DNA from: Acidobacteriota bacterium
GTDB taxonomy: Bacteria > Acidobacteriota > JAAYUB01
Reading direction: 5' to 3'
NCBI GenBank assembly: GCA_018001935.1
Contig: JAGNHB010000017.1
Span: 784-64,783, forward strand
Length of the DNA stretch: 64,000 nucleotides
Part shown: positions 7,839 through 61,057 of the stretch, in pieces
How the letters are laid out: every line of letters starts with the position of its first letter
Position numbering within the stretch: the first letter of the stretch is position 1
Program-made: the position numbers and the translations under genes
The notes under the pieces: model-generated
Database searches by the model: none
What the model was told of the DNA's origin: nothing
The model's input: the letters and a program-made list of their open reading frames with translations, nothing else

Positions 7839-8286
7839 TCAGCGTTGAGAAATAACTGCTTTTGCTGCAAAAATTTCGCCCCTGGCGGGGCGAGGCGTTC
7901 CCCGCCAGGGTCGACCGGGCCTGCGGTTTTCCGGCGCCGCCTCCGGGGCGCAAGGATTTTCAAATGGCCCGCAACCGGCGGGAGTACCCCCTGCCGGGGG
8001 AACACCCGCCGGCTAATCTCTTTTATCCCTTCGGGATAGGGATTGCCTGGGTGCGGGTTGTTCGCGTTGTGGTTACACAGAATGAAGCCCTGACGGGGTT
8101 CTCCCCGTGCGGTTTGTTCGTCATCGGCCCGGGTTACCCGGGGCGTTCGAAGCGGAGGACGAACCCCTTGCCCGCACCGGCCTTGCCCCGGGTCCCGAGC
8201 GAAGCGCCCCTTTTCCCGCCAGCGTCCCGCCCGGATCCCGACGTCGTCCCGCCCGCGCCCCGCCCGGATCGCGGCCGTTGGCTCTT

Positions 8287-8455
8287 CACCCCGTCAGGGG
8301 TGAAATGTTTGTAGAATAAGCGGTTATCAAGAGTTCCCCCCGCGCGCCGCCGGCCCGGGATGGCGCCCCGCGGCACGATCTCCCCCCGGCGGCGCGCGGG
8401 AGGGGGTGTTTTATAAACCGTTTTACTACAAATGTTTCACCCCTGACGGGGTGAG
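8287..8455. mobile_element. Complete MITE/REP-like composite element (copy A): 30-bp terminal inverted repeats caccccgtcaggggtgaaatgtttgtagaa flanking a ~70-bp GC palindrome cccccgcgcgccgccgg...ccggcggcgcgcggg
   Basis: TIRs sit at 8287-8316 and 8427-8455 with 2 mismatches. The internal hairpin is shared with copies at 22291, 35100 and 60269. Confidence 0.6.
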
Positions 8456-8675
8456 GGCGCGAGGGGGTGACGGGATTGCGGTGGGGTGACGGCGTACGGC
8501 TCGCCCGGCGTACGCGCGCCGAGCCGAGGCGCGCGCCCGGCCGAGGGGGCGTCGGGGGGGGTTACCGCCGGGCTCGGCTCGCCCGGCGTACGGCTCGCTG
8601 TTCGCGGCCGAATGGACGGCCACCCCGCCGCCCTCGCTCCCGGGGTTGCCCCCCCCGCGCTTTCGAATGCGCGGG

Positions 8676-22159: not shown

Positions 22160-22290
22160 GGGTTCCTCGCCGGACGGGATTTGAAAAGAACGATTTCAGT
22201 GTCTCACAACCGCCGGGGTTCTTCAACAGCTTTCGCCGCGGCAGGCGCTTGGGCGGCTGCGTTCATGACAGTAAAAGAGGCTTTTATTCA

Positions 22291-22640
22291 TTTCCCCCGC
22301 GCGCCGCCGGGGGTGAAGCGTGCTCCGAAGCACCCTTCCGGCCGGCGGCGCGCGGGGGAGGAGAATCATTATAACTACCTTTTCTACAAACATTTCACCC
22401 CTGACGGGGTGAGGACGCAGAGGGCATGATCCCGGCGGGGTGGAGACGCGGCAGGCACGCCCCACACGGGATGAGGACGCAGAGGGCATGATCCCGGCGG
22501 GGTGGAGACGCGGCAGGCACGCCCCACACGGGATGAGGACGCGGCAGGCACGATCCCGGTGGGTCGGGACGCGGCGGGCACGACCAATGCGCGGTGAAGA
22601 CACGAAAGGCCACGATCCGCACGGAACAAAGGGGTGGCGA
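22291..22640. repeat. Composite repeat copy B: GC palindrome + 31-bp TIR-like block ttctacaaacatttcacccctgacggggtga + ~7 degenerate 30-31-bp tandem units
   Basis: Contains tttcccccgcgcgccgccgg...ccggcggcgcgcggggg. The TIR is followed by contiguous units of consensus GGGTGAGGACGCGGCAGGCACGATCCCGGCG with no spacers. Confidence 0.7.
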
Positions 22641-24205: not shown

Positions 24206-25594
24206 ATGAAGAAGACCGCGAGCCTCTCCGCCCTTGCCCTCCTCGCCACCTTCACCCTCCGGGCCGGCGAGTTCCGCCTGCCCCCCCCGGAGGTCTTCAC
24301 CCTCGACAACGGGATGACCGTGCTCTACCGCCTCGACCGGACCGCCCCCCTGGTCAGCTTCCAGGCCATCCTCGGCGGCGCGGGGACGGCGGACGAGCCC
24401 CAGGGGAAGGAGGGCGTCGCCGGCCTGACCGCGGACCTGCTGCTCAAGGGGTGCGGCGGGAAGAGCGCCCAGGCCGTGGCGGAGGCCATCGACTTCATGG
24501 GGGCGTCCCTCACGATGAGCTCCGACGCCGAAAGTGCCCAGATGAGCGGCCTGTGCCTCCGGGAACACTTCCCCGTCCTGCTCGACCTCGCGTCCGCCGC
24601 CCTGACCACCCCCGATCTCCCCGCCGACGAGTTCGAGCGGGAGCGGGCCCGGCGCCGGGAGTCCTTCAAATCCCTCAAGGACGACGCCCACGCCGCCATC
24701 CGGCCCTACTTCATGAAGGCCTACTTCGCCGGGCACCCCCTCGGCCGCCTCGCCCTGGGCACCGAGGCCTCTCTCGGCGCGCTCGGGCCCGACGACGTCA
24801 AGGCGTTCTACAAGGCCTGCTACCGGCCCGACCGGATGATTCTCTGCGTGGTGGGCGACATTTCCCCGGACGACCTGAAGGCGGCCCTCGGGAGAACCCT
24901 GGGGACCTGGGCCCGGCCCGCCGCCCCCGCCGGGGCGCCGAGCCTCCCCGAGTTCCCGAAACCGTCCGGACGCCGGCTCCTGCTGGTGGACAAGCCGGAC
25001 CTCAACCAGAGCTTCTTCATCCTGGGCGGGCCCGGCTTCGCCTTCGGCGACCCCGTGGAACCCCGTGCGCAGGTCTTCAACACCCTGTTCGGCGACCGCT
25101 TCACGTCCTGGCTCAACACCGAGCTTCGCATCAAGCGCGGCCTCACCTACGGCGCCGGCAGCGCATTCCAGGGCTGGCGCAACGGCGGTCTCTTCACCAT
25201 CGCCTCCTACACGAAAAACGAGGACCTCGGCACGATGCTGGACATCACCCTCGACCTGATGAAGAAGGCGCGGGAGCAGGGCTTCGCCGCCGCCGACGTG
25301 GAGAGCGCCCGGAACTACATCCGGGGGCAGACCCCCCTGGACCTCGAGACCGCCGGCCAGCAGGCCGACGCCTACGCCCAGCTCCGCTTCTACGGGATCG
25401 GCTGGGATTACTTCGACCGCTTCCTCGCGGAAGTGTCCCGGGTGACGCCGGCCGCCGTCGCCGACGCGGCGAAGCGGCTGGTCCCCTCGGAGGACTTCAC
25501 CCTGGTGGTGCTGGGCAAGGCGGAGGCGGTCCTGCCGATCCTGGAGAAATACGGCAAGTTCGAGGTCCGCAAGATCTCCGACCCGGGCTTCTGA
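24206..25594 (+). CDS. M16 family peptidase, second (likely non-catalytic) subunit
   Basis: Starts 3 nt after the upstream stop. Signal peptide MKKTASLSALALLATF. M16 C-terminal-type domains, no HxxEH. Confidence 0.8.
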   Translation: MKKTASLSALALLATFTLRAGEFRLPPPEVFTLDNGMTVLYRLDRTAPLVSFQAILGGAGTADEPQGKEGVAGLTADLLLKGCGGKSAQAVAEAIDFMGASLTMSSDAESAQMSGLCLREHFPVLLDLASAALTTPDLPADEFERERARRRESFKSLKDDAHAAIRPYFMKAYFAGHPLGRLALGTEASLGALGPDDVKAFYKACYRPDRMILCVVGDISPDDLKAALGRTLGTWARPAAPAGAPSLPEFPKPSGRRLLLVDKPDLNQSFFILGGPGFAFGDPVEPRAQVFNTLFGDRFTSWLNTELRIKRGLTYGAGSAFQGWRNGGLFTIASYTKNEDLGTMLDITLDLMKKAREQGFAAADVESARNYIRGQTPLDLETAGQQADAYAQLRFYGIGWDYFDRFLAEVSRVTPAAVADAAKRLVPSEDFTLVVLGKAEAVLPILEKYGKFEVRKISDPGF

Positions 25595-25596
25595 AA

Positions 25597-25825
25597 GTAC
25601 GCGCCGCCTGCCGGGCGGCGCTTTGTCTTTCCCCTTGGCGCCTTCCGGCAGAAGGCGCCTACCGTACGCGCCGCCTGCCGGGCGGCGCTTTGTCTTTCCC
25701 TGGCGCCTTCCGGCAGAAGGCGCCTACTGTACGCGCCGCCTGCCGGGCGGCGCTTTGTCTTTCCCTGGCGCCTTCCGGCAGAAGGCGCCTACCGTACCCG
25801 CCGCCTGCCGGGCGGCGCACGTTCT
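25597..25825. repeat. Tandem array (3.5 x ~63 bp) of paired GC hairpins (gcgccgcctgccgggcggcgc and ggcgccttccggcagaaggcgcc)
   Basis: Direct near-perfect repeats begin 3 nt after the peptidase stop. Each unit has two perfect palindromes, and the first is followed by TTTGTCTTTCCC. Confidence 0.85.
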
Positions 25826-26069
25826 CCCCCCCGGGGACGGCGATCACCTTCGTGTGCAACCGCTGGACCCGGTCACCGGCGTGCACTTGGAGGAGATCCG
25901 TCTTTTGATATCTTTGGTTTCATGATCTGAAATGATTTCTTTCACACATCTTTTCTATTACAGGGCAAAGGAGAAAGCAAACCCGATAATCGTCTTGGCA
26001 AAACCAATACGCTGAGGGTGCTTCAGCCTACAGCCTAAACCCCTACAGCCTAAACCCCTACAGCCTACT

Positions 26070-34830: not shown

Positions 34831-34851
34831 CCGTGGTCTCGAAAGGCAACC

Positions 34852-35180
34852 GGGATCGTACCCGCCGCGTCATCACCCCGTGTGGGGCGTGCCTGCCGCG
34901 TCCCCACCCCGCCGGGATCGTACCCGCCGCGTCTTCACCCCGTCAGGATCGTACCCGCCGCGCCCTCGCCCCGCCGGGATCGTACCCGCCGCGTCTTCAC
35001 CCCGTCAGGATCGTACCCGCCGCGCCCTCGCCCCGCCGGGATCATGCCCTCTGCGCCTTCACCCCGTTAGGGGTGAAATGTTTGTAGAAAAGGCAGTTAT
35101 AGAGATTGTTTTCCCCCGCGCGCCGCCGGTCCGGGAGGGTGCTCCGGAGCACGGTTTACCCCCGGCGGCGCGCGGGGGAA
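34852..35180. repeat. Composite repeat copy C (inverted relative to copy B): ~6 alternating 31-bp tandem units, TIR caccccgttaggggtgaaatgtttgtagaa, GC palindrome
   Basis: Units of gatcgtacccgccgcgtcttcaccccgtcag alternate with gatcgtacccgccgcgccctcgccccgccgg. The array ends in the TIR and the cccccgcgcgccgccgg hairpin. Confidence 0.7.
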
Positions 35181-35678
35181 ACGATTTCCGGCACCCCTCC
35201 GGGGTGCGGCGGGTTTATGGGGCTCCGACCGGTGGGAGTTCGCCTCTCCAGGGGAACTACGGTATCGGTATCGGTATCGCTCTCGGTCTCGCTATCGCCC
35301 TCGCCCTCGCTCTCCCCCTTTCTCCCCGGCCCGATCAGTCGGAAAGACGGCGCTCCGGCGACCTGCGCGCCTTGCTCCTGGGGTTTGTCAAAAAGCGGCG
35401 CTCCGTCAGACCTCCGCGCCGCACTCCCCAGGACACCCCCACCGTCACTCCGGCGGCCTGCGCGCCGCACTCCCCATCGGTCCATTCAGATTCAACTGGC
35501 GGGGTTCGGGCATGCGCCAGGTGGGGGCGTTCTTCATCCCCGCCAGGGGATGAATCTGTGTAGAACCGGCGGGGGTTTCGGTCTGTTCCCGTCCCGCACC
35601 CAACGGGAAGGGTGAGCGCCCCCATAAAAAAACCGGCGCCACGGGGCGCCGGTTCGGGATTCAACGCGTTGGGGACGA

Positions 35679-39920
<4,242 letters not shown>

Positions 39921-47321: not shown

Positions 47322-47398
47322 TGGCAGGCCAGGAGGGACTCGAACCCCCAACATCCGGTTTTGGAGACCGGCGCTCTACCAATTCGAGCTACTGGCCT
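47322..47398 (-). tRNA. tRNA-Trp (CCA anticodon), CCA end encoded
   Basis: Reverse complement: AGGCCAGTAGCTCGAATTGGTAGAGCGCCGGTCTCCAAAACCGGATGTTGGGGGTTCGAGTCCCTCCTGGCCTGCCA. It folds as a cloverleaf. Confidence 0.85.
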
Positions 47399-47410
47399 GC
47401 TCGGGGTACG

Positions 47411-47560
47411 CTACTTGGTTTCCTTGTGCGGCGTGTGCTTCCGGCAGAACTTGCAATACTTGCTCAGGAGATACTTCTCCGTGTGCTTCTTCTTGTTCCG
47501 CGTGGTGGCGTAGTTGCGGTTCTTGCACTCGCCGCACTGCAACTGGACTTTATCGCGCAT
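47411..47560 (-). CDS. rpmG: 50S ribosomal protein L33
   Basis: 49 aa, [49 protein letters not shown]. Not present in the ORF track. Confidence 0.8.
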
Positions 47561-47589
47561 GTCGTTCTCCCCGGCCCGGAAGGACCGAG

Positions 47590-48780
<1,191 letters not shown>

Positions 48781-48821
48781 GATGGTATCCTCCAGTCTTC
48801 GTTTTTTTCATGCGGGAAAAG

Positions 48822-48896
48822 TGGAGCCCAAGACCAGGATTGAACTGGTGACCCCCTCCTTACCAAGGAGGTGCTCTACCACTGAGCTACTTGGGC
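48822..48896 (-). tRNA. tRNA-Thr (GGT)
   Basis: Reverse complement: GCCCAAGTAGCTCAGTGGTAGAGCACCTCCTTGGTAAGGAGG...CTTGGGCTCCA. Confidence 0.85.
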
Positions 48897-48921
48897 CCTG
48901 ACGCGTTCCATTGTCAAGGAG

Positions 48922-48997
48922 TGGAGCGGGAGACGGGATTCGAACCCGCGACCCTCAGCTTGGAAGGCTGACGCTCTACCAACTGAGCTACTCCCGC
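48922..48997 (-). tRNA. tRNA-Gly (TCC)
   Basis: Reverse complement: GCGGGAGTAGCTCAGTTGGTAGAGCGTCAGCCTTCCAAGCTGAGGGTCGCGGGTTCGAATCCCGTCTCCCGCTCCA. Confidence 0.85.
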
Positions 48998-49081
48998 GGT
49001 CAAAGTGCTCCAGGCTCGCCGCCGCCGAGGTCGCCGAGCTGTCGCTCTTCCTCGTGACGTCCGGTTTCGCCGGGAGAACTG

Positions 49082-49166
49082 GTGGAGAGGGGAGGATTCG
49101 AACCTCCGTAGGACCGAAGTCCGGCGGGTTTACAGCCCGCTGCCATTAGCCGCTCGACCACCTCTC
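49082..49166 (-). tRNA. tRNA-Tyr (GTA), long variable arm, CCA not encoded
   Basis: Reverse complement: GGAGAGGTGGTCGAGCGGCTAATGGCAGCGGGCTGTAAACCCGCC...GGTTCGAATCCTCCCCTCTCCA. Confidence 0.8.
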
Positions 49167-49196
49167 CATACCGTTGGTTCAAATAACAGGTTTCAA

Positions 49197-49269
49197 AAGC
49201 TGGCGAGAGGACTTGAACCCCCAACCCGCTGATTACAAATCAGCCGCTCTACCGGTTGAGCTACGCCAG
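49197..49269 (-). tRNA. tRNA-Thr (TGT)
   Basis: Reverse complement: GCTGGCGTAGCTCAACCGGTAGAGCGGCTGATTTGTAATCAGCGGGTTGGGGGTTCAAGTCCTCTCGCCAGCT. Confidence 0.8.
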
Positions 49270-49369
49270 CGCGCGAGCGGGGGAAGTTAGCACAACCGCG
49301 GCCAATCTGCAAGCGAAAACGCAAGGAAGTTTCCCCGGTGGAAATCCTCCGAGCGAATGATGAAGTTTA

Positions 49370-53058: not shown

Positions 53059-53244
53059 GCGCTTTAGCAGCTGCGTTCTTACCAACATGTTGTCGTTTCC
53101 GGTTGCCTTCCCAGGCCACTGTTACCGGGCGAAGTCCCGGAAAAAGCGCAGGCCCTTCGAAGTGAGATCTTTGGCAAAATGAGCAAGATTTGAGATCGTC
53201 GGTGGGCTCCCACCGCTTTCGGAGCAGGGAAACCCGATGAGGGC

Positions 53245-53540
53245 ACGGAGGGAATCCCCACAGCGTCGCCAGGCAGTTCCCAGGGCTGAAATGCCCCGCT
53301 CGTGCCGATCCTGGTCCGGAATCGACGAGAAAAGTCTCTCGCCAAGACGCCAGGATGCAAAGCCTCGCAAAGGGATCCCCCTTTTCCGGTTCCGGCTTTG
53401 CGTCTTGGCGAGAGGTTGAGACCGCCTGTTTTTTATTTTCTGTTTTCTTCGTTCGTGTGGTTCGTGTGGTTCGTGGTTCTTTTCCCTTTCGTGTATTCCG
53501 TGTATTTCGTGGTTCCTTCTCCGGTTTATCCGGCTTGGGC
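53245..53540. repeat. Repeat family E copy 1: ~100-nt structured stem-loop (tctcgccaagacgc...gcgtcttggcgaga), U-tract, then 9-bp iteron-like direct repeats (ttcgtgtgg x3; cgtgtattc x2), directly upstream of gene start 53557
   Basis: A homologous copy lies at 60657..60940 and a partial copy at 55195..55245. Each sits immediately 5' of a + strand gene. Confidence 0.7.
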
Positions 53541-55261: not shown

Positions 55262-58200
55262 ATGACTGAACCCGAACGCCCGGACGGTCCCGAGTCTTTG
55301 GACGACCTTTTCGGCCCGGTGAAGGAAGCCGCGGCGTTAGGGCGGAAGCCCTTCAAGTTCCTCGACCCCTACGGTCCCGAGGACGCCGACCTGTTCTTCG
55401 GGCGGGACCCGGAGATCCGGGAGGTCTACGCACGCTACTACGGGAGCCGGCTGCTGCTGGTGTACGGGGAGTCGGGGGCGGGGAAGACCTCGCTGCTGCA
55501 GTGCGGGCTGCGGGGGCGGGTGCCGCCGGAGGAGGCGCTGTTCGTGCCCTTCCGCTCGGGGGAGGACCCGCTCGAATCCCTCCGGCGGGAAGTGCTGCGC
55601 CGCGTGGCGTTCCCCGACGGGGCGCCGGAAGACGACCTGGAGCTGCTGCGGGAGGCGGCGTTCCGGAAGCGCAAGACCCTGGCGCTGGTGTTCGACCAGA
55701 TGGAGGAGTGCTTCCTCTTCGCGCCGAAGGCGGCGCGGGAGCGCTTCGCGAAGGCCCTGGCGGCCTGGATGGCGGCGGGGGTGAACGTCAGGGTGGTGCT
55801 GTCCATCCGGGAGGAGTACCTGGCGCGGCTGGGGGAGTGGGAACCGCTGCTGCCCGAGCTGTACCGGAACCGGCTGTGGGTGCGGCGGGTGGACTTCGGG
55901 GACGTGAAGGAGCTGGTGGAGGGCCCGTGCCGGGCGGTGGGGGTGCCGGTGGAGCCGGACCTGACGGCGGCCGTCACGCGCCTCTTCGAGCGGGAGGCGC
56001 GGGGGGTGGACCTGCCCACGTTCCAGGTGCTCATGGACCGGCTGTACGACGAAGCCTCCACGCGCGGCGAGACGCCGGTGGCCCTGAAGGCGGCGGACCT
56101 CGAGCGCGTGGGCGGCCTGGAGGACGTCCTGGCGGCGTTCCTGGAGCGGGCGGCGTCGGAGCTGCCCGACCCGGCGGCGGGGCGGGAGCTGCTCAAGGCC
56201 ATGGTGTCGGCGGAGGGGACGAAGCTCCGGGCCGGGGCGGAGGCGCTGGCAGCGGGGGCCGGCCTGGACCCGGCGGCGGCGGTCCCGCTGCTGGCGTCCC
56301 TCGAAACCGCGCGGGTGGTGCGCCGGCTGCCGGAGGGTGAGGAGTGGGAGCTGCGGCACGACCGCCTGGCGAAGGTGGTGTTCGGCTGGCTGTCGGAGAC
56401 GGAGAAGGACCTGCTGGAAGCGCGGCGGATGGTGGAGGGGCGTCTGAAGGACTACCAGTCCCGGGGCCTGCTGCTGGACACGGCGGCGCTGAAGGCGATC
56501 GTGCCCTTCGAGAAACCCCTCTCGCGGCACCCGGCCACGGCGGAGCTGATCCGGAAGAGCCGTGAGCACCTCGCGGCCCTCTCCCGCCGCCGGAAGCGCC
56601 TCGTCGCCGAGGTCACGGGCATCGCCTTCCTGGTGCTGGCGCTCTTCACCGTCTGGAACGTCCGCGAGCGCCGCGCGGCGGAACGGGAACGCGATCGGGC
56701 GGAGCAGATGGCTGCCGAGGTTCGGGCAAGCGAGGCGAAAACCACACAAGCCTTCGCTCTTTCCCTCTTCCACCGGATGGAAATCGCCTTGGAAAAAGGC
56801 CGGCGAAACGAGGTCATCTCCCTCCTCGTGGGGGCCATACGGCTATCACGCGCCAATGGGCTTTATCTGGACCGGCTCGTGAATCAATTGACGGTTGTCG
56901 GTATCGCCCTGCCCGTTTCTCCACCCCTGCGTCATTCGGACGAGGTTTGGTACGTCGCCTTCAGCCCCGACGGATCAAGAGTGGCTACGGGATCTGCGGA
57001 CAAGACTGGCCTAGTATGGGATGCGCGGACAGGGGTTGCGTTGACGCCTCCGTTACAGCATGGAGGTCCCGTCAGCGGAGTAGCCTTCAGCCCGGATGGA
57101 GCCAGAGTGGCCACGTCTTCATGGGATGGCACTGCGCGGGTATGGGATGCGCGGACAGGAGCGGCCTTGACAGCCCCGCTTCGCCACGAGAAAGCCGTCG
57201 ACCGGTGTATCACCTTCAGCCCGGATGGAACCCGCCTGGCGACCGGTTCCATGGATAATACCGCTAGGGTCTGGTGTTCACAAACGGGGAAAGCGATTAC
57301 CCCTTCGCTGAAACACGGGGGGCTGGTCTTTGCACTTGCATTCAACCGGGACGGCACAAGGCTGGCAACGGCTTCTTTCGACAAGACCTCCCGCGTGTGG
57401 AATGCCCTGACAGGAGAACCGGTTACGGCTCCGCTAAAGCATGATGACGAGGTTGTGGACGTCGCGTTCAGCCCAGATGGAACCAGGGTGGCAACCGCGT
57501 CGCTTGATAAAACAGTCCGGATCTGGGATGCACGGACTGGCGCGGCGGTGACGGCCCCGCTGATGCATGAAAACAAGGTCTGGAAGGTCGTGTTCAGCCC
57601 GAATGGGAAGCAGGTCTTTTCTTTCACCGACACTTCGACGTATATCTGGAATGCCCAAACAGGTGAGTCGATTGAAATTCCCTTCAGAGATCATCAATGG
57701 AGTTGTGTGGCATTCAGCCCTGATTTGACGAGGGTCCTTTCACAGAATCCGAATTGCGCACGCGTGAAGGACATACGAACGGGAGCCACGGTCACGGAAT
57801 TCATGCAACACAACGCAACCCTCTTGCTGGGGATTTTTAGCCCGGACGGGCAGTGTGCTGCCACGTATTCCAGGGATCAGACGGCTCGCATCTGGGACGC
57901 CCGCGGGAGAGGGGCCCTGCCGATTCCTTTGAATCTTGAGAATCGAGGAACCTGTGCTGCCTTCAGCCCGGACGGGACACGATTGGCGGCGCCAAGCGGA
58001 GATCGTGGGGTAAGGCTTTGGGACACAAAATCCGGAGGGGAGATTCTGCCCTCACTCAGGCCTGAAGGCAAGATAGGTTATATCGGTTTCGACCCGAGAG
58101 GGCTTCGGGTGGCCACCGTGTCCGATGTTGCGGCGCAGCTCTGGGATGCCCGGACAGGGCAACCGCTGTGCGCACCCTTGAGGCTTTCCACCACCATCCG

Positions 58201-59191
58201 CGCGTTTGCCTTCAGCCCGGACTGGGGATGTCTGGCCATGGCCTCCACGGACAGAACCGTCCAAATCTGGGAAACACGAACAGGATCGGCATTGAAAGCC
58301 CCCCTTCGATGCGACGGCGATATCCTGGACCTGGCTTTCCACGCGGACGGAACTCGATTGGTCGTGCTGTGTGGGGATCGCACAACCTGGCTTTGGAATT
58401 TCCGGAAAAGGACCTTTGAAAAGGTCACGCTGCGGTGTGGGGAAAAGTGTGACATATACCTGAGTCCTGAGGGGACGAAAATCGCCTCACGATCCGAAAA
58501 TCAAAGTGTAGTGCGGGTCTGGGATGCCCGGACAGGTTTGGCATTGACGCCACCGCTGAAGCACGAGGCTCCAGTCAAGTTCATTACTTTCAGCTTGGAT
58601 GGGACTCTGCTAGCCACTGGATCTTTATGGATAGTGCATCTTTGGGACCTGCGTACCGGCGCGGCAACAGCAAAGCTAATTCATGAAGGAATGGTCGAGG
58701 GAGACGCTTTCGTCCCTGTCATCAACGCAAGCTTCAGCCAAGATGGCACGCGATTGATTACGGAAACAAAAGACCGAGCCGTCCGGATCTGGGATGTCAA
58801 AGCGGGGGCGATGGCCACCGAACCGCTCCAGCATGACGAGCCTGTACACTTTGCTATTTTCAGTCCTGACGGGAAGCGGGTGGCCACGATGTCAGGCGAC
58901 CACACCCTGTTGGTCTGGGACCTCGGGCTCGGGCTTCGGAACCCGCCCGACTGGTTCTTGAGCCTGGCCGAAGGGTTGGCGGGGTTGCGGTTAGACGATT
59001 CGGGCAACTTGATCCCCGTGATCGATTCCTGGGACCGTCTCCAAAAAGCCCGGGCAATCGCTGCGACAGGAGATCCAACAGATCCGTGGATTCACTGGGC
59101 GCGCTGGTTCCTGGCCGACTGCGACACGCGCACTGTCTCCCCTTCCTCCGACGCCACCGCAGCGCAATACCGCGCCCTCCACCCCCGGTGA
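55262..59191 (+). CDS. STAND-type P-loop NTPase - helical region - single TM helix - ~14 WD40 repeats (1309 aa)
   Basis: Walker A LVYGESGAGKTSLL and Walker B LALVFDQMEE. A TM helix IAFLVLALFTVWNV at ~aa 455. Repeated motifs VAFSPDG.R.AT.S.D.T.R.WDA.TG from there to the C-terminus. Confidence 0.85.
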   Translation: MTEPERPDGPESLDDLFGPVKEAAALGRKPFKFLDPYGPEDADLFFGRDPEIREVYARYYGSRLLLVYGESGAGKTSLLQCGLRGRVPPEEALFVPFRSGEDPLESLRREVLRRVAFPDGAPEDDLELLREAAFRKRKTLALVFDQMEECFLFAPKAARERFAKALAAWMAAGVNVRVVLSIREEYLARLGEWEPLLPELYRNRLWVRRVDFGDVKELVEGPCRAVGVPVEPDLTAAVTRLFEREARGVDLPTFQVLMDRLYDEASTRGETPVALKAADLERVGGLEDVLAAFLERAASELPDPAAGRELLKAMVSAEGTKLRAGAEALAAGAGLDPAAAVPLLASLETARVVRRLPEGEEWELRHDRLAKVVFGWLSETEKDLLEARRMVEGRLKDYQSRGLLLDTAALKAIVPFEKPLSRHPATAELIRKSREHLAALSRRRKRLVAEVTGIAFLVLALFTVWNVRERRAAERERDRAEQMAAEVRASEAKTTQAFALSLFHRMEIALEKGRRNEVISLLVGAIRLSRANGLYLDRLVNQLTVVGIALPVSPPLRHSDEVWYVAFSPDGSRVATGSADKTGLVWDARTGVALTPPLQHGGPVSGVAFSPDGARVATSSWDGTARVWDARTGAALTAPLRHEKAVDRCITFSPDGTRLATGSMDNTARVWCSQTGKAITPSLKHGGLVFALAFNRDGTRLATASFDKTSRVWNALTGEPVTAPLKHDDEVVDVAFSPDGTRVATASLDKTVRIWDARTGAAVTAPLMHENKVWKVVFSPNGKQVFSFTDTSTYIWNAQTGESIEIPFRDHQWSCVAFSPDLTRVLSQNPNCARVKDIRTGATVTEFMQHNATLLLGIFSPDGQCAATYSRDQTARIWDARGRGALPIPLNLENRGTCAAFSPDGTRLAAPSGDRGVRLWDTKSGGEILPSLRPEGKIGYIGFDPRGLRVATVSDVAAQLWDARTGQPLCAPLRLSTTIRAFAFSPDWGCLAMASTDRTVQIWETRTGSALKAPLRCDGDILDLAFHADGTRLVVLCGDRTTWLWNFRKRTFEKVTLRCGEKCDIYLSPEGTKIASRSENQSVVRVWDARTGLALTPPLKHEAPVKFITFSLDGTLLATGSLWIVHLWDLRTGAATAKLIHEGMVEGDAFVPVINASFSQDGTRLITETKDRAVRIWDVKAGAMATEPLQHDEPVHFAIFSPDGKRVATMSGDHTLLVWDLGLGLRNPPDWFLSLAEGLAGLRLDDSGNLIPVIDSWDRLQKARAIAATGDPTDPWIHWARWFLADCDTRTVSPSSDATAAQYRALHPR

Positions 59192-59733: not shown

Positions 59734-60231
59734 GTGTGGGACGTCCGGTCGGGGTTGACGGTGACCGGGCCGTTGGGCGGGTCCGCGGAAAGTGCCGCGG
59801 ACCCGCACGGGGCGGGAAAGGTGTACGACGAGCTGATGGAGTGGGCCGACGGCCCGGCCGGGCCGAACCTGATGACCGTGGGGTACGACGGGTACGTCAG
59901 GGCCTGGGAGCTCGGGCTCGGCCTGCGCAACCCCCCCGGCTGGGTCCTGGACCTGGCCGAGGCGGTCACGGGGCTGCGGCTGGACGAAACCGCCTATCCG
60001 TTGCAGATGCCGGCCGCCGAGGTGTGGGAGCGGATCCGGCGGGCCCGGGAGGAGGCGGCGCGCGGGGACCCGAAGGACCCCTGGGTCCGCTGGCTGCGCT
60101 GGTTCCTGGCGGACCGCGACACCCGGACCCTCTCGCCCTTCTCGGACGTCACGCCGGCGCAGTACCGCGACCTCCACCCGAACCCGGCGCCGGCCCCGAA
60201 GACCCCTGCCCCGCCGGGTGCCGGGCCCTGA
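59734..60231 (+). pseudogene. Orphan fragment homologous to the last WD repeat + C-terminal ~90 aa of the 55262..59191 protein
   Basis: WELGLGLRNPPGWVLDLAEAVTGLRLDE...DPKDPWVRWLRWFLADRDTRTLSPFSDVTPAQYRDLHP aligns to ...WDLGLGLRNPPDWFLSLAEGLAGLRLDD...DPTDPWIHWARWFLADCDTRTVSPSSDATAAQYRALHPR. There is no start context, and the frame is open upstream into low-GC DNA. Confidence 0.6.
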
Positions 60232-60268
60232 CCCTCTGAAGGTTCGGAGTAAAAGCGGTTGTTATTAA

Positions 60269-60565
60269 TTTCCCCCGCGCGCCGCAGGGTCCTCACCCCG
60301 TCAGGTTAAATGTTGGTATTAAAAGAGGTTATTTTTCATTCCCCCCGCGCGCCGCCGGGGGTTTACCATACTCCGGAGCGCCCTCCCGGCCGGCGGCGCG
60401 CGGGGGAGGAGAATATTTATAACTGCCTTTTCTACAAATATTTCACCCCTGACGGGGTGAAGACGCGGCGGGCACGATCCCGGCGGGTCGAGGGCATGGC
60501 GGGCACGATCCACACGGGGCGAGAACGCGGCGGGCACGATCCCGACAGAGTGGGGACGCGGTGTA
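60269..60565. repeat. Composite repeat copy D: degenerate hairpin+TIR half copy, full GC palindrome, TIR ttctacaaatatttcacccctgacggggtga, ~4 tandem 30-bp units
   Basis: Same architecture as copies B and C. The tandem units are gacgcggcgggcacgatcccggcgggtcgagg and similar. Confidence 0.7.
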
Positions 60566-60656
60566 CACGACCCTGGCGGGGAAGAACGCCTTGCTCCCGC
60601 CACCTTCGGGGTGGGTTTGTTTTTGCGAGGCGTCGTTTCTTCCCCGGGGCGGGGAC

Positions 60657-60940
60657 GGAGGAGGGAATCCCGGCAGCGTCGTCCGGCATGCCCCGGGGCT
60701 AAAATGCCCCACTGGTGCTGATTCGGTTCCGGAATCGACGTATCCGGTCTCTAGCAAAGACGCAAAGCCTCGCAAAGGAATCCCCCTTTTCCGGTTCCGG
60801 CTTTGCGAGGCTTGGCGTCTTTGCGCCTTTGCGAGAGGTAAAGACCGCCTGTTTTTTTTCTGGAGCGTCCGGATGATCCGTGCCCATCCGTGTTCATCCG
60901 TGTTCATCCGTGGTTTCTCTCCGGTTTATCCGGGTTGGGA
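60657..60940. repeat. Repeat family E copy 2 (structured stem-loop + 10-bp direct repeats atccgtgNNc x4) upstream of the full-length AAA_14 ATPase
   Basis: It shares ggagggaatccc...gctaaaatgcccc...ccggaatcgacg...caaagcctcgcaaagg.atccccctttttccggttccggctttgcg...cgagagg...gaccgcctgttttttt...ctccggtttatccgggttggg with copy 1. Confidence 0.7.
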
Positions 60941-61057
60941 CGGCCTTTTCGGTGAGGATGGAATTCTAGCCGGACCTTCGTCGGAGCCAGGAAAAGCGAG
61001 GTCGGCTGCGCATGATAATTCTTGAACTGCACAAATAATCATGTTATTGTGCAGTTC

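What the first reader, a model, noticed from the sequence alone, without database searches (positions are those of the whole stretch)
22291..22640. Interspersed composite repeat family (copies at 8287, 22291, 34852, 60269): GC palindrome + TIR + degenerate 30-bp tandem arrays
The three copies carrying arrays (22291, 34852, 60269) each combine (i) a 70-bp GC-only palindrome, (ii) a ~20-bp AT-richer linker (tataact.cctt), (iii) a 31-bp block ttctacaaacatttcacccctgacggggtga with its own mini-hairpin, and (iv) 4-7 contiguous degenerate 30-31-bp units. The units look like serial partial duplications of the TIR end (tcttcaccccgtcag). Copy A (8287) lacks the array and instead carries a second inverted TIR. 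Copies B and C are in opposite orientations. All copies sit in intergenic regions at operon boundaries. I cannot place the family in a known REP/BIME/MITE class from sequence alone. The arrays could also be protein-binding sites, for example for a REP-associated tyrosine transposase or a nucleoid protein.
Basis: seen in the sequence. Interest (0 to 1): 0.6.

Follow-up and report, generated by a model that had tools for sequence, protein, structure and literature searches.

The report
REP-like hairpin repeats with tandem arrays
The four repeats are decayed copies of a small hairpin-ended mobile element (REP/REPIN type) that, in related bacteria, flanks an IS200-like tyrosine transposase gene; the 31-bp arrays are tandem amplifications of the element's end, so this is a real but fairly ordinary bacterial repeat family.

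Summary
Copies at about 8283, 22291, 34850 and 60269 share a GC palindrome, a TATAAC linker, a 31-nt end (TTCTACAAACATTTCACCCCTGACGGGGTGA) and, in three copies, 4-7 contiguous 31-bp units with a 62-bp higher-order period. The units have no spacers, so this is not CRISPR. There is no Rfam match. The window comes from an Acidobacteriota MAG. The end hairpin belongs to a widespread motif: a variable 5-7-bp stem closed by CC/GG, a GTYA loop, and an N-ATGTTTRTAG tail. It occurs in Blastocatellia/Pyrinomonadaceae, Nitrospirales, KSB1 and Alloprevotella MAGs and in soil metagenomes, and its stems covary strongly. In 9 of 120 metagenome loci fetched by this motif alone, inverted hairpins flank a 153-aa Y1 HUH transposase (Pfam Y1_Tnp, NCBIfam IS200). 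The reciprocal search, from protein to DNA, found the hairpins again. It also found 46-bp x15.5 and about 261-bp tandem arrays beside the gene, which sits at one syntenic site in three genomes. Elements B and C are absent from relatives 89-95% identical in the flanking protein. Best reading: REPIN-like non-autonomous elements of an IS200-like/RAYT-like system with head-to-tail REP clusters. The cognate transposase of this genome was not seen. This is a new member of a known kind, of moderate to low interest.

The parts
7862..7896 (-). Solo degenerate end copy: linker plus hairpin TCGCCCC-TGGC-GGGGCGA, with no palindrome
   Evidence: Model R1 scores it 31 bits, E 6.5e-6. Sequence read.
8070..8104 (-). 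Weak degenerate hairpin-plus-tail copy (GAACCCC GTCA GGGCTTC)
   Evidence: R1 scores it 16 bits, E 0.05. This is marginal.
8283..8457 (.). Copy A, a complete REPIN-like doublet: left hairpin+tail 8283-8317 (+), GC palindrome about 8335-8404, right hairpin+tail 8423-8457 (-)
   Evidence: Folds at -71 kcal/mol, z -11. R1 scores 51.1 and 45.5 bits.
22272..22415 (+). Copy B core: left linker, GC palindrome 22292-22360, TATAAC linker, end hairpin+tail 22381-22415. The left hairpin is lost.
   Evidence: R1 scores 52.9 bits.
22413..22629 (+). Array B: 6-7 units of 31 bp. Units 1-2 are duplicated exactly as units 3-4 (62-bp period). Outer units are decayed.
   Evidence: TRF and unit table.
34850..35058 (-). 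Array C: 7 units of 31 bp, starting 20 bp after the stop of the DUF2304 gene
   Evidence: TRF 31 x7.0 and 62 x3.6. Unit table. Reproduced in L057 and L058.
35056..35207 (-). Copy C core: end hairpin+tail 35056-35090, linker, GC palindrome 35111-35180, degenerate second hairpin GCACCCC-TCCG-GGGGTGC 35191-35207
   Evidence: R1 scores 51.6 bits.
35532..35566 (+). Solo variant hairpin TTCATCCCC-GCCA-GGGGATGAA plus TCTGTGTAGAA, with a compensatory stem change
   Evidence: R1 scores 21.5 bits, E 0.002. Sequence read.
60250..60322 (+). D': left linker plus half a GC palindrome (60272-60288), joined to a damaged left hairpin+tail (60290-60322)
   Evidence: R1 scores 16.5 bits.
60323..60463 (+). Copy D core: left linker, GC palindrome 60340-60408, TATAAC linker, end hairpin+tail 60429-60463
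   Evidence: 82% identical to B over 261 nt (family D4). R1 scores 51.5 bits.
60461..60584 (+). Array D: 4 units of 31 bp, followed by a terminator-like hairpin at 60596-60625
   Evidence: TRF, unit table, terminator scan.

Best explanation
The four loci are old, partly decayed copies of a REP/REPIN-type non-autonomous element. Its functional end is a single-strand DNA hairpin: a 5-7-bp stem closed by two C:G pairs, a GTYA loop, and a 3' tail N-ATGTTTRTAG. By inference, this is the recognition and cleavage substrate of an IS200-like Y1 HUH tyrosine transposase that acts in trans. In related genomes that gene is single-copy, sits at a syntenic site, and is flanked by inverted sets of these hairpins with tails pointing inward, which is a REPtron/TIRtron arrangement. 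Copy A is the gene-less doublet, with two inverted ends around a lineage-specific GC palindrome. B, C and D have lost or damaged one end.

The 31-bp arrays are head-to-tail amplifications of a segment made of the outer hairpin arm, the loop, 2 nt of the inner arm, and 18 nt outside the hairpin. They were partly inherited with the element when it copied itself. They were then expanded locally as 62-bp dimers, by replication slippage or unequal recombination, or possibly by Y1-mediated cleavage and rejoining between neighbouring ends. Most units can no longer form the hairpin, so they are best read as fossils of end amplification rather than working sites.

Shown here: the anatomy, the covariation, the association with Y1 genes in related loci, and the absence of B and C in close relatives. 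Inferred: that a Y1 enzyme mobilised these particular copies, and how the arrays arose.
For: Motif and structure:
- In 145 metagenome matches found with the stem positions left free, the three inner free positions pair in about 95%.
- All five free positions pair in 49 matches, against 3.4 by shuffling, with 22 distinct stems.
- Results are similar in the genome loci.
- On the hairpin alignment A3 (built from hits pre-selected for stem pairing), 5 of 7 pairs change on both sides.
- The two ends of one element often carry different stems, yet each stem is self-complementary: L007, L040, L046, L052.
- G:T pairs are not enriched among mismatches: 18 of 161.

Link to a Y1 transposase:
- ORF clustering beside hairpins found one recurrent protein.
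- It matches Pfam Y1_Tnp at E 1e-23 to 1e-27 and NCBIfam IS200 above the cutoff.
- 9 of 120 motif-selected loci carry it.
- Hairpins flank it in inverted orientation with tails inward: L098, L157, L149 and others.
- The reciprocal test worked. Three genomes fetched by protein have the gene at the same syntenic site with hairpin clusters beside it.
- Y1 is 88% identical between two of these genomes, and neighbouring genes are 78-98% identical.

Arrays are family-wide:
- L187 has 46 bp x15.5, also a 94-bp dimer x7.8, next to the gene.
- L188 has a ~261-bp periodic series of hits.
- L034 has 50 bp x4.5.

Array history in the window:
- B1=B3, B2=B4 and C2=C4 are 100% identical.
- B1~C1 is 87%, B2~C6 is 93% and D1~C3 is 93%.

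Mobility:
- B is absent from L055, whose flanking protein is 95% identical.
- C is absent from L059-L062 (89%) and from L063 (76%).

Literature: tandem REP clusters and Y1 genes flanked by non-GTAG inverted repeats, including an Acidobacteria group, are described in PMC3733652. Atypical REP-like structures are described in PMC6006769.
Against: - No Y1 gene occurs in the 64-kb window or in the 54 genome loci, so the cognate enzyme of this genome is unseen.
- The Y1 protein scores below the cutoff for NCBIfam REP_Tyr_transpos (36-37 bits against 80). Its closest solved relatives are IS200/IS605 TnpAs, not E. coli TnpA-REP.
- The canonical GT[AG]G at the 5' foot of the hairpin is absent.
- The empty sites in relatives are not clean. 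The whole spacer differs, so insertion boundaries and any target duplication could not be defined.
- Array units lack the tail and one arm, unlike the full-unit arrays in L187 and L034, so their origin may differ.
- The lineage-specific GC palindrome has no counterpart in the Y1-flanking structures.
Confidence: 0.7

Rival explanations
1. A classical MITE mobilised by a DDE transposase that recognises the 31-bp terminal inverted repeats as duplex DNA. On this view the arrays are unrelated minisatellites.
For: Copy A has near-perfect 31-bp inverted ends, is small and carries no ORF. Two related copies show possible 3-5-bp direct repeats at their flanks: L024 and L040 (the apparent one at L049 is element sequence).
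Against: - There is no consistent target duplication. Most copies have none, and in Alloprevotella the apparent flanks are part of a longer element.
- The two ends of one element can have different stem sequences while each end stays self-complementary. Duplex TIR recognition does not predict this.
- No DDE gene recurs beside the hairpins. The only recurrent neighbour is a Y1 gene.
Confidence: 0.07
2. The element works mainly at the RNA level, as a terminator or mRNA-stabilising hairpin cassette. The arrays might then be a processed repeat RNA, in the manner of type III antitoxin arrays.
For: - The hairpin plus T-rich tail passes a simple terminator scan at 22412-22395, 35058-35077 and 60461-60442.
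- Copies C and D lie in 3' regions of genes. In C the hairpin has the right orientation for the upstream DUF2304 gene.
- The copies fold strongly, with z of -4.6 to -11.
Against: - Orientation relative to neighbouring genes is inconsistent. B lies between divergent gene starts, and the hairpin in D is on the opposite strand.
- There is no Rfam family.
- G:U pairs are not enriched.
- Array units are 61-100% alike and degenerate, and no toxin-like gene follows them consistently.
- The tight link to a DNA transposase explains the conservation without any RNA role.
- A secondary host effect as terminator or stabiliser, as reported for REPs, is not excluded.
Confidence: 0.1
3. The 31-bp arrays are iteron-like binding sites for a DNA-binding protein such as a nucleoid protein, partition protein or regulator. 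The period of 31 bp is about three helical turns.
For: The spacing is regular at 31 bp, and most units contain a GATC and a short GC inverted repeat.
Against: - Arrays occur only attached to the element end.
- Unit sequences drift freely, and outer units decay to background.
- Arrays B and C are absent from close relatives at the same loci, so no conserved host function is tied to those positions.
- Other family members have periods of 46-50 bp and about 261 bp.
Confidence: 0.05
4. A CRISPR array or CRISPR remnant.
For: The repeat length of about 31 bp and the partial dyad symmetry are in the CRISPR range.
Against: Units are contiguous with no spacers. The 62-bp period is two alternating unit types, not repeat plus unique spacer. 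There are three arrays within 40 kb, each fused to the same transposon-like end.
Confidence: 0.01

Closest known systems
REP/BIME/REPIN elements with RAYT (TnpA-REP) genes, called REPtrons, in Proteobacteria
   Same: Both are short extragenic hairpins present in many copies. Both form inverted doublets that fold into a long hairpin. Both form head-to-tail tandem clusters that include flanking DNA (PMC3733652). In both, a single-copy, vertically inherited Y1 HUH gene is flanked by its own hairpins.
   Different: There is no GT[AG]G at the 5' foot of the hairpin. Instead there is an invariant GTYA loop, CC/GG closing pairs and a 3' tail ATGTTTRTAG, with RTAG 7 nt from the foot. The motif is conserved across genomes assigned to several phyla, whereas REPs are usually species-specific (PMC6006769). 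The protein scores as IS200 rather than as REP_Tyr_transpos. The doublet core is a 70-bp GC palindrome.
TIRtrons/TIRYT (Di Nocera et al. 2013, PMC3733652), and the atypical TnpA-Y1 subclass 2.6 and class 3 (Quentin et al. 2018, PMC6006769)
   Same: These are Y1 genes flanked by inverted repeats that are not GTAG REPs. Repeat families occur as singles, dimers and clusters. An Acidobacteria group is reported. Some TIRs share the motif GGGGWSAS, and the window has GGGGTGAG at copies A-right and B.
   Different: Sequence identity with those published TIRs could not be checked, because the figures are not held. Class 3 has a Y----Q motif and a CnGA foot, whereas this protein has Y-x-x-x-Q. Many copies read GGGGTGAA, which does not fit GGGGWSAS.
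IS200/IS605 insertion sequences and their gene-less derivatives (PATEs)
   Same: The closest HMM and PDB matches are to this family. Both use subterminal hairpins, and neither makes a target duplication.
   Different: From general knowledge, IS200/IS605 ends carry their hairpins on the same strand and are not inverted repeats. Here the ends are inverted. The gene looks single-copy and syntenic rather than multi-copy.
Modular repeats with a variable tandem module, such as pneumococcal BOX (boxA-boxB(n)-boxC) and E. coli BIME-2
   Same: Both are composites of fixed modules plus a module repeated a variable number of times. Both are intergenic.
   Different: There is no sequence relationship. In BIME-2, REPs alternate in orientation, whereas here all units point the same way and are truncated hairpins. 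This comparison rests on my own knowledge and was not tested.

Membership tests
REP/REPIN-RAYT (REPtron) | Short imperfect palindrome, extragenic, in multiple copies | tested here: met
   The window has 6 clear model hits (E 6.5e-6 or lower) and 3 weaker ones (E 0.002-0.053), all outside the genes identified. The motif is abundant in 174 related loci.
REP/REPIN-RAYT (REPtron) | Inverted REP doublet that folds into one long hairpin (REPIN) | tested here: met
   Copy A folds at -71 kcal/mol, z -11. There are many doublets 140-310 bp long in related loci.
REP/REPIN-RAYT (REPtron) | Conserved GT[AG]G tetranucleotide 0-2 nt 5' of the hairpin foot | tested here: not met
   The 5' flank is not conserved. 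RTAG lies 7 nt 3' of the foot (A3 alignment).
REP/REPIN-RAYT (REPtron) | Cognate Y1 transposase gene flanked by the same hairpins | tested here: inconclusive
   Met in related loci: 9 of 120 motif-selected loci and 3 protein-selected genomes. No such gene is in the window, and the rest of this genome was not available.
REP/REPIN-RAYT (REPtron) | Protein matches the curated RAYT model (NCBIfam NF047646) | tested here: not met
   It scores 36-37 bits against a cutoff of 80. IS200 model NF033573 scores 64-68 bits against a cutoff of 55.
REP/REPIN-RAYT (REPtron) | Single-copy, vertically inherited transposase gene | tested here: met
   The gene has the same syntenic neighbours in L186, L187 and L188. 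Y1 is 88% identical, against 78-98% for neighbouring genes. Most protein clusters are seen on one contig. This applies to relatives, not to the window genome.
IS200/IS605 insertion sequence or PATE | Y1_Tnp transposase | tested here: met
   Pfam PF01797, E 1e-23 to 1e-27. PDB matches 2f4f, 2xm3 and 2a6m.
IS200/IS605 insertion sequence or PATE | Left and right end hairpins on the same strand, with ends that are not inverted repeats | tested here: not met
   The ends are inverted, with tails pointing inward on both sides of the gene and of the doublets.
TIRtron/TIRYT (PMC3733652) | Y1 gene flanked by inverted repeats that are not GTAG REPs, with the repeats also dispersed as singles, dimers and clusters | tested here: met
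   for the gene flanks. for dispersed singles, dimers and clusters.
TIRtron/TIRYT (PMC3733652) | Shared TIR motif GGGGWSAS | tested here: inconclusive
   GGGGTGAG (A-right, B) fits the motif. GGGGTGAA (C, D, most relatives) does not.
DDE-type MITE | Direct target-site duplication of fixed length | tested here: not met
   There is no consistent duplication at 10 doublets.
DDE-type MITE | Parent IS with the same ends and a DDE transposase | tested here: not met
   No such gene recurs near the hairpins in 174 loci.
CRISPR | Repeats separated by unique spacers of similar length | tested here: not met
   The units abut one another. The 62-bp period is two alternating unit variants.
CRISPR | cas genes nearby | not tested
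   Only 10 window ORFs were scanned. None was a Cas protein.
Rfam structured RNA | Match to a curated covariance model | tested here: not met
   The whole window at gathering threshold gives only 5 tRNAs. Permissive scans of copy B and of four Y1 loci give only sub-threshold chance hits.

The most novel reading that the evidence does not exclude
This would be an unrecognised clade of REPtron-like systems, widespread in soil Acidobacteriota and also seen in MAGs assigned to other phyla. An IS200-type Y1 transposase, rather than a canonical RAYT, would have been domesticated at a fixed chromosomal site. It would recognise a hairpin by an invariant GTYA loop and a 3' ATGTTTRTAG tail instead of a 5' GTAG foot. 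The head-to-tail arrays would then be direct products of the enzyme's cleavage and rejoining between neighbouring ends. These arrays are 31 bp in the window, and 46-50 bp and about 261 bp elsewhere, always beside an intact end and often beside the gene itself. They would be a natural record of how REP clusters are made.
Probability: 0.3. Interest if true: 0.5.

Novelty: new member of a known kind. Interest (0 to 1): 0.35.

Why it matters
A hairpin family with a fixed loop and tail, found in genomes assigned to several phyla and tied to an IS200-like Y1 gene at a conserved chromosomal site, would widen that picture. It would also give a clean substrate for testing how Y1 enzymes read hairpins, because it combines an invariant loop and tail with a freely covarying stem. 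The arrays beside intact ends and beside the gene offer a testable case for how tandem REP clusters arise. On the practical side, these arrays break short-read assemblies of this organism. They could also be mistaken for CRISPR-like or regulatory arrays during annotation.

Tried and rejected
- CRISPR is rejected, because there are no spacers.
- Rfam gave nothing, either on the whole window at gathering threshold or in permissive scans of copy B and of four Y1 loci.
- The exact hairpin sequence is not printed in any paper in the library.
- There is no match in plasmid records or in viral contigs.
- A lineage-specific pattern of palindrome plus end gave 0 hits in JGI metagenomes. This genome's own copies were not in the GTDB representative set.
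- Exact-protein look-ups of the phosphorylase and EF-Tu failed. The organism was identified only through the DUF2304 protein.
- A first ORF-clustering pass over the 54 genome loci found no recurrent neighbour gene. Same-strand hairpin pairs in L014 and L050 enclose ordinary genes, not transposases.
- The search for target-site duplications was inconclusive to negative.
- Clean empty sites could not be obtained. In relatives the whole intergenic spacer differs.
- The first covariation count was on hairpins pre-selected for pairing, so it is biased. It was replaced by counts on hits chosen by loop and tail only.
- A type III antitoxin-like repeat RNA was considered. It was dropped because the units are degenerate, the orientation is inconsistent and no toxin gene follows.
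- A promoter role for the TATAAC linker is not supported: no sigma-70-like site was found in or beside copies B and C, and the one near D lies about 430 bp past its array.

Full report
**1. Observation**

Its parts are a GC palindrome with 17-bp GC-only arms (CCCCCGCGCGCCGCCGG), a linker containing TATAAC, and a 31-nt end (TTCTACAAACATTTCACCCCTGACGGGGTGA). The last 18 nt of that end form a perfect 7-bp hairpin.

In copies B, C and D, contiguous 31-bp units lie outside that end. The statistics are as follows.
- The 20-nt core occurs 5 times with at most 1 mismatch, where 0.02 is expected.
- The GC arm occurs 9 times against 0.45 expected.
- TRF reports the arrays at 22404-22618, 34850-35071 and 60447-60589, with period 31 and a stronger period 62.

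Copy A (8283-8457) has two inverted ends and folds into one hairpin of -71 kcal/mol, z = -11. Copy D is compound: half an element, a damaged left end, then a full copy. A covariance model of the end finds more solo or degenerate copies at 7862-7896, 8070-8104 and 35532-35566.

Contigs assembled independently from two other sequencing runs reproduce the start of array C exactly and then stop inside it. The arrays are therefore real sequence, and they break short-read assemblies.

**2. Array anatomy**

Sliced in register, the unit consensus is GGACGCGGCGGGCACGATCCCGGCGGGGTGA. Each unit keeps the outer hairpin arm, the loop and 2 nt of the inner arm (about 13 nt). It adds 18 nt that lie outside the hairpin, and it lacks the ATGTTTGTAG tail. 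The model of the intact end does not detect any unit.

The relationships between units are:
- B1=B3, B2=B4 and C2=C4 are identical, which reflects recent 62-bp duplications.
- The unit next to the hairpin is shared by B and C (87%).
- A distinctive variant is shared by B2/B4 and C6 (93%).
- D1 resembles C3 (93%).

So part of each array was inherited with the element, and part expanded in place. Units occur nowhere else in the window. There are no spacers, so the arrays are not CRISPR.

**3. Context and host**

The positions of the copies are:
- B lies between the divergent starts of a glycogen phosphorylase gene and an M16 peptidase gene.
- C starts 20 bp after a DUF2304 gene and lies upstream of the end of the long minus-strand ORF (35679-39920) taken to be rpoC; that ORF was not scanned.
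- D follows an unannotated ORF and precedes a terminator-like hairpin and an AAA_14/DUF4143 ATPase gene.

The DUF2304 protein is identical to MBP7866051.1 from an Acidobacteria bacterium MAG.

In a relative whose phosphorylase is 95% identical, the B spacer is 146 bp of unrelated sequence between conserved flanks, against 531 bp in the window. In relatives with 89% and 76% identical DUF2304, the C spacer is 256 bp and 340 bp, with no trace of the element. The elements were therefore gained in this lineage or lost in the relatives. The empty sites are not clean enough to define the insertion boundaries.

**4. The end hairpin is a widespread, structurally constrained motif**

The exact 20-mer occurs in 54 stretches of GTDB representative genomes, where my estimate of the chance expectation is about 2. 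These are mainly Blastocatellia/Pyrinomonadaceae, a Nitrospirales MAG, a KSB1 MAG and one Alloprevotella MAG. The usual arrangement is an inverted pair 140-310 bp apart.

Neighbouring copies carry other stems (TCACTCC, GAACTCC, GCCCTCC, CAACCCC, CTGCCCC, TCGCTCC, TGATCCC). All of them keep the same GTYA loop, the CC/GG closing pairs and the ATGTTTATAG tail.

My first covariation count used hairpins pre-selected for pairing, so I repeated it without that bias.
- Among 34 hits chosen by loop and tail only, 28 pair at all five free positions.
- A metagenome scan with the stem left as N returned 120 loci and 145 matches. The three inner free positions pair in about 95% of them.
- All five free positions pair in 49 matches, against 3.4 by shuffling, with 22 distinct stems.

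The two ends of one element often differ in stem sequence, yet each end remains self-complementary. G:T pairs are not enriched among the mismatches. This points to recognition of a folded single strand, most simply DNA. It argues against recognition of duplex terminal repeats.

**5. The partner gene**

I clustered the ORFs lying within 600 bp of hairpins across 174 loci. This gave one recurrent protein of about 153 aa. Its matches are:
- Pfam Y1_Tnp, E 1e-23 to 1e-27.
- NCBIfam IS200 above the cutoff, and REP_Tyr_transpos below it.
- Closest solved structures are IS200/IS605 TnpAs.

Nine of the 120 motif-selected loci carry it, while the window does not. In L098 the layout is [hairpin + ATGTTTATAG][second hairpin] gene [second hairpin][ATGTTTATAG + hairpin], inverted, with tails pointing inward. 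L157, L149, L083, L160, L129 and L150 have hairpin hits beside the gene, on both sides in most; L070 and L112 show one each. The gene-less four-hairpin doublets of Blastocatellia, and copy A in the window, have the same plan with the gene missing.

The reverse test also worked. More than 7,900 homologues exist, and sources name them either RayT or IS200/IS605 transposase. Three genomes fetched by protein alone carry the gene at the same syntenic site, with hairpin clusters beside it. Between two of these genomes the Y1 protein is 88% identical, while neighbouring genes are 78-98% identical. This is the behaviour of a domesticated, vertically inherited RAYT-like gene, not of an active insertion sequence.

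**6. Arrays elsewhere in the family**

Tandem arrays occur in several related loci:
- Directly downstream of the Y1 gene, L187 has 15.5 units of 46 bp, which TRF also reports as 7.8 copies of a 94-bp dimer. Most of these units have a damaged hairpin, and intact hairpins follow the array.
- L188 has a ~261-bp periodic series of hits.
- L034 has 4.5 units of 50 bp at one end of a doublet.
- L157, L160 and L164 show smaller runs.

Tandem amplification of the end unit beside an intact end, often with a dimer super-period, is therefore a property of the family. The window's 31/62-bp arrays are a local version built from a truncated unit.

**7. Mechanism**

Shown here: the anatomy, the covariation, the Y1 association and synteny in relatives, the shared and duplicated units, and the absence of B and C in close relatives.

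Inferred, by analogy with IS608 TnpA and E. coli TnpA-REP (established knowledge; reviewed in PMC6006769 and PMC3733652):
- The Y1 enzyme binds the hairpin on single-stranded DNA and cuts near it, presumably in the conserved tail.
- It mobilises gene-less doublets in trans.
- Arrays grow by slippage or unequal exchange, or by enzyme-mediated joining of neighbouring ends.

The hairpin plus its T-rich tail also passes a simple terminator scan. A side effect on transcription is therefore possible, but the orientation relative to genes is inconsistent.

**8. Comparison with known families**

The closest kinds are REP/REPIN-RAYT systems and the TIRtrons of Di Nocera et al. Those authors already report an Acidobacteria group, and they describe REP clusters reiterated in tandem along with flanking DNA. 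The differences here are:
- There is no 5' GT[AG]G foot.
- The loop and the 3' tail are invariant, and they are conserved across genomes assigned to several phyla.
- The protein is of IS200 type.
- The array units are truncated.
- The core is a GC palindrome specific to this lineage.

Membership in canonical REP/RAYT fails two defining tests, the GTAG foot and the RAYT protein model. Membership in IS200/IS605 proper fails on end geometry. The TIRtron description fits best.

**9. Verdict**

The finding is real and is now explained in kind. It is a new member of a known kind, of moderate to low interest. The main gap is that the cognate transposase of this genome was not seen.

Noticed in passing
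window 25597-25818 and 26027-26067: A 65-bp unit is repeated 3.4 times at 96% identity, starting 3 bp after a gene stop at 25594. Each unit holds two GC hairpins (GCGCCGCCTGCCGGGCGGCGC and GGCGCCTTCCGGCAGAAGGCGCC), so it looks like a tandemly duplicated terminator pair. A 15-bp x2.7 repeat follows.
   Followed up: partly
window 53240-53540 and 60655-60945: There is a second dispersed repeat of about 290 bp, 78-88% identical between its two copies. It has embedded 9-10-bp microsatellites (GTTCGTGTG, ATCCGTGTTC) and ends in CTCCGGTTTATCCGG. One copy lies just after array D. It has no Rfam hit at gathering threshold.
   Followed up: partly
window 56954-58362: Coding repeats with a 126-bp period lie inside a 1309-aa ORF (55262-59191). 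They look like WD40-type repeats from the FSPDG...WD pattern. This was not scanned against Pfam.
   Followed up: no
window 59030-59184 and 60025-60179: A 155-nt stretch near the end of the 1309-aa ORF is 71% identical to the end of the small ORF just upstream of copy D. This suggests a partial gene duplication (family D8).
   Followed up: no
window 35260-35319: Hexamer and 12-mer repeats (CGGTAT, TCGCTC) lie between copy C and the downstream minus-strand ORF taken to be rpoC. Their nature is unknown.
   Followed up: no
L187 10492-11221; L188 10523-11625: Long tandem arrays of degenerate hairpin units lie directly downstream of the Y1 transposase gene. They are 46 bp x15.5 (94-bp dimer) in L187 and a series of hits about 261 bp apart in L188. 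The gene sits at the same syntenic site, between Aldedh plus a hypothetical gene and Amidohydro_1, in three genomes.
   Followed up: yes
L001-L053 (Alloprevotella MAG DAIRWG01), e.g. L049 1855-2160 and L017 2701-3041: In one oral Alloprevotella MAG the same hairpin is subterminal in a longer ~300-bp element whose flanks are also conserved. Many copies sit at contig ends. L017 has a 47/97-bp CACGAAG-rich tandem array 55 bp outside the hairpin.
   Followed up: partly
window 47325-49270: A cluster of five tRNA genes surrounds the 396-aa ORF at 47590-48780 (taken to be EF-Tu, not scanned), downstream of the long minus-strand ORFs taken to be rpoB/rpoC. This is ordinary.
   Followed up: no
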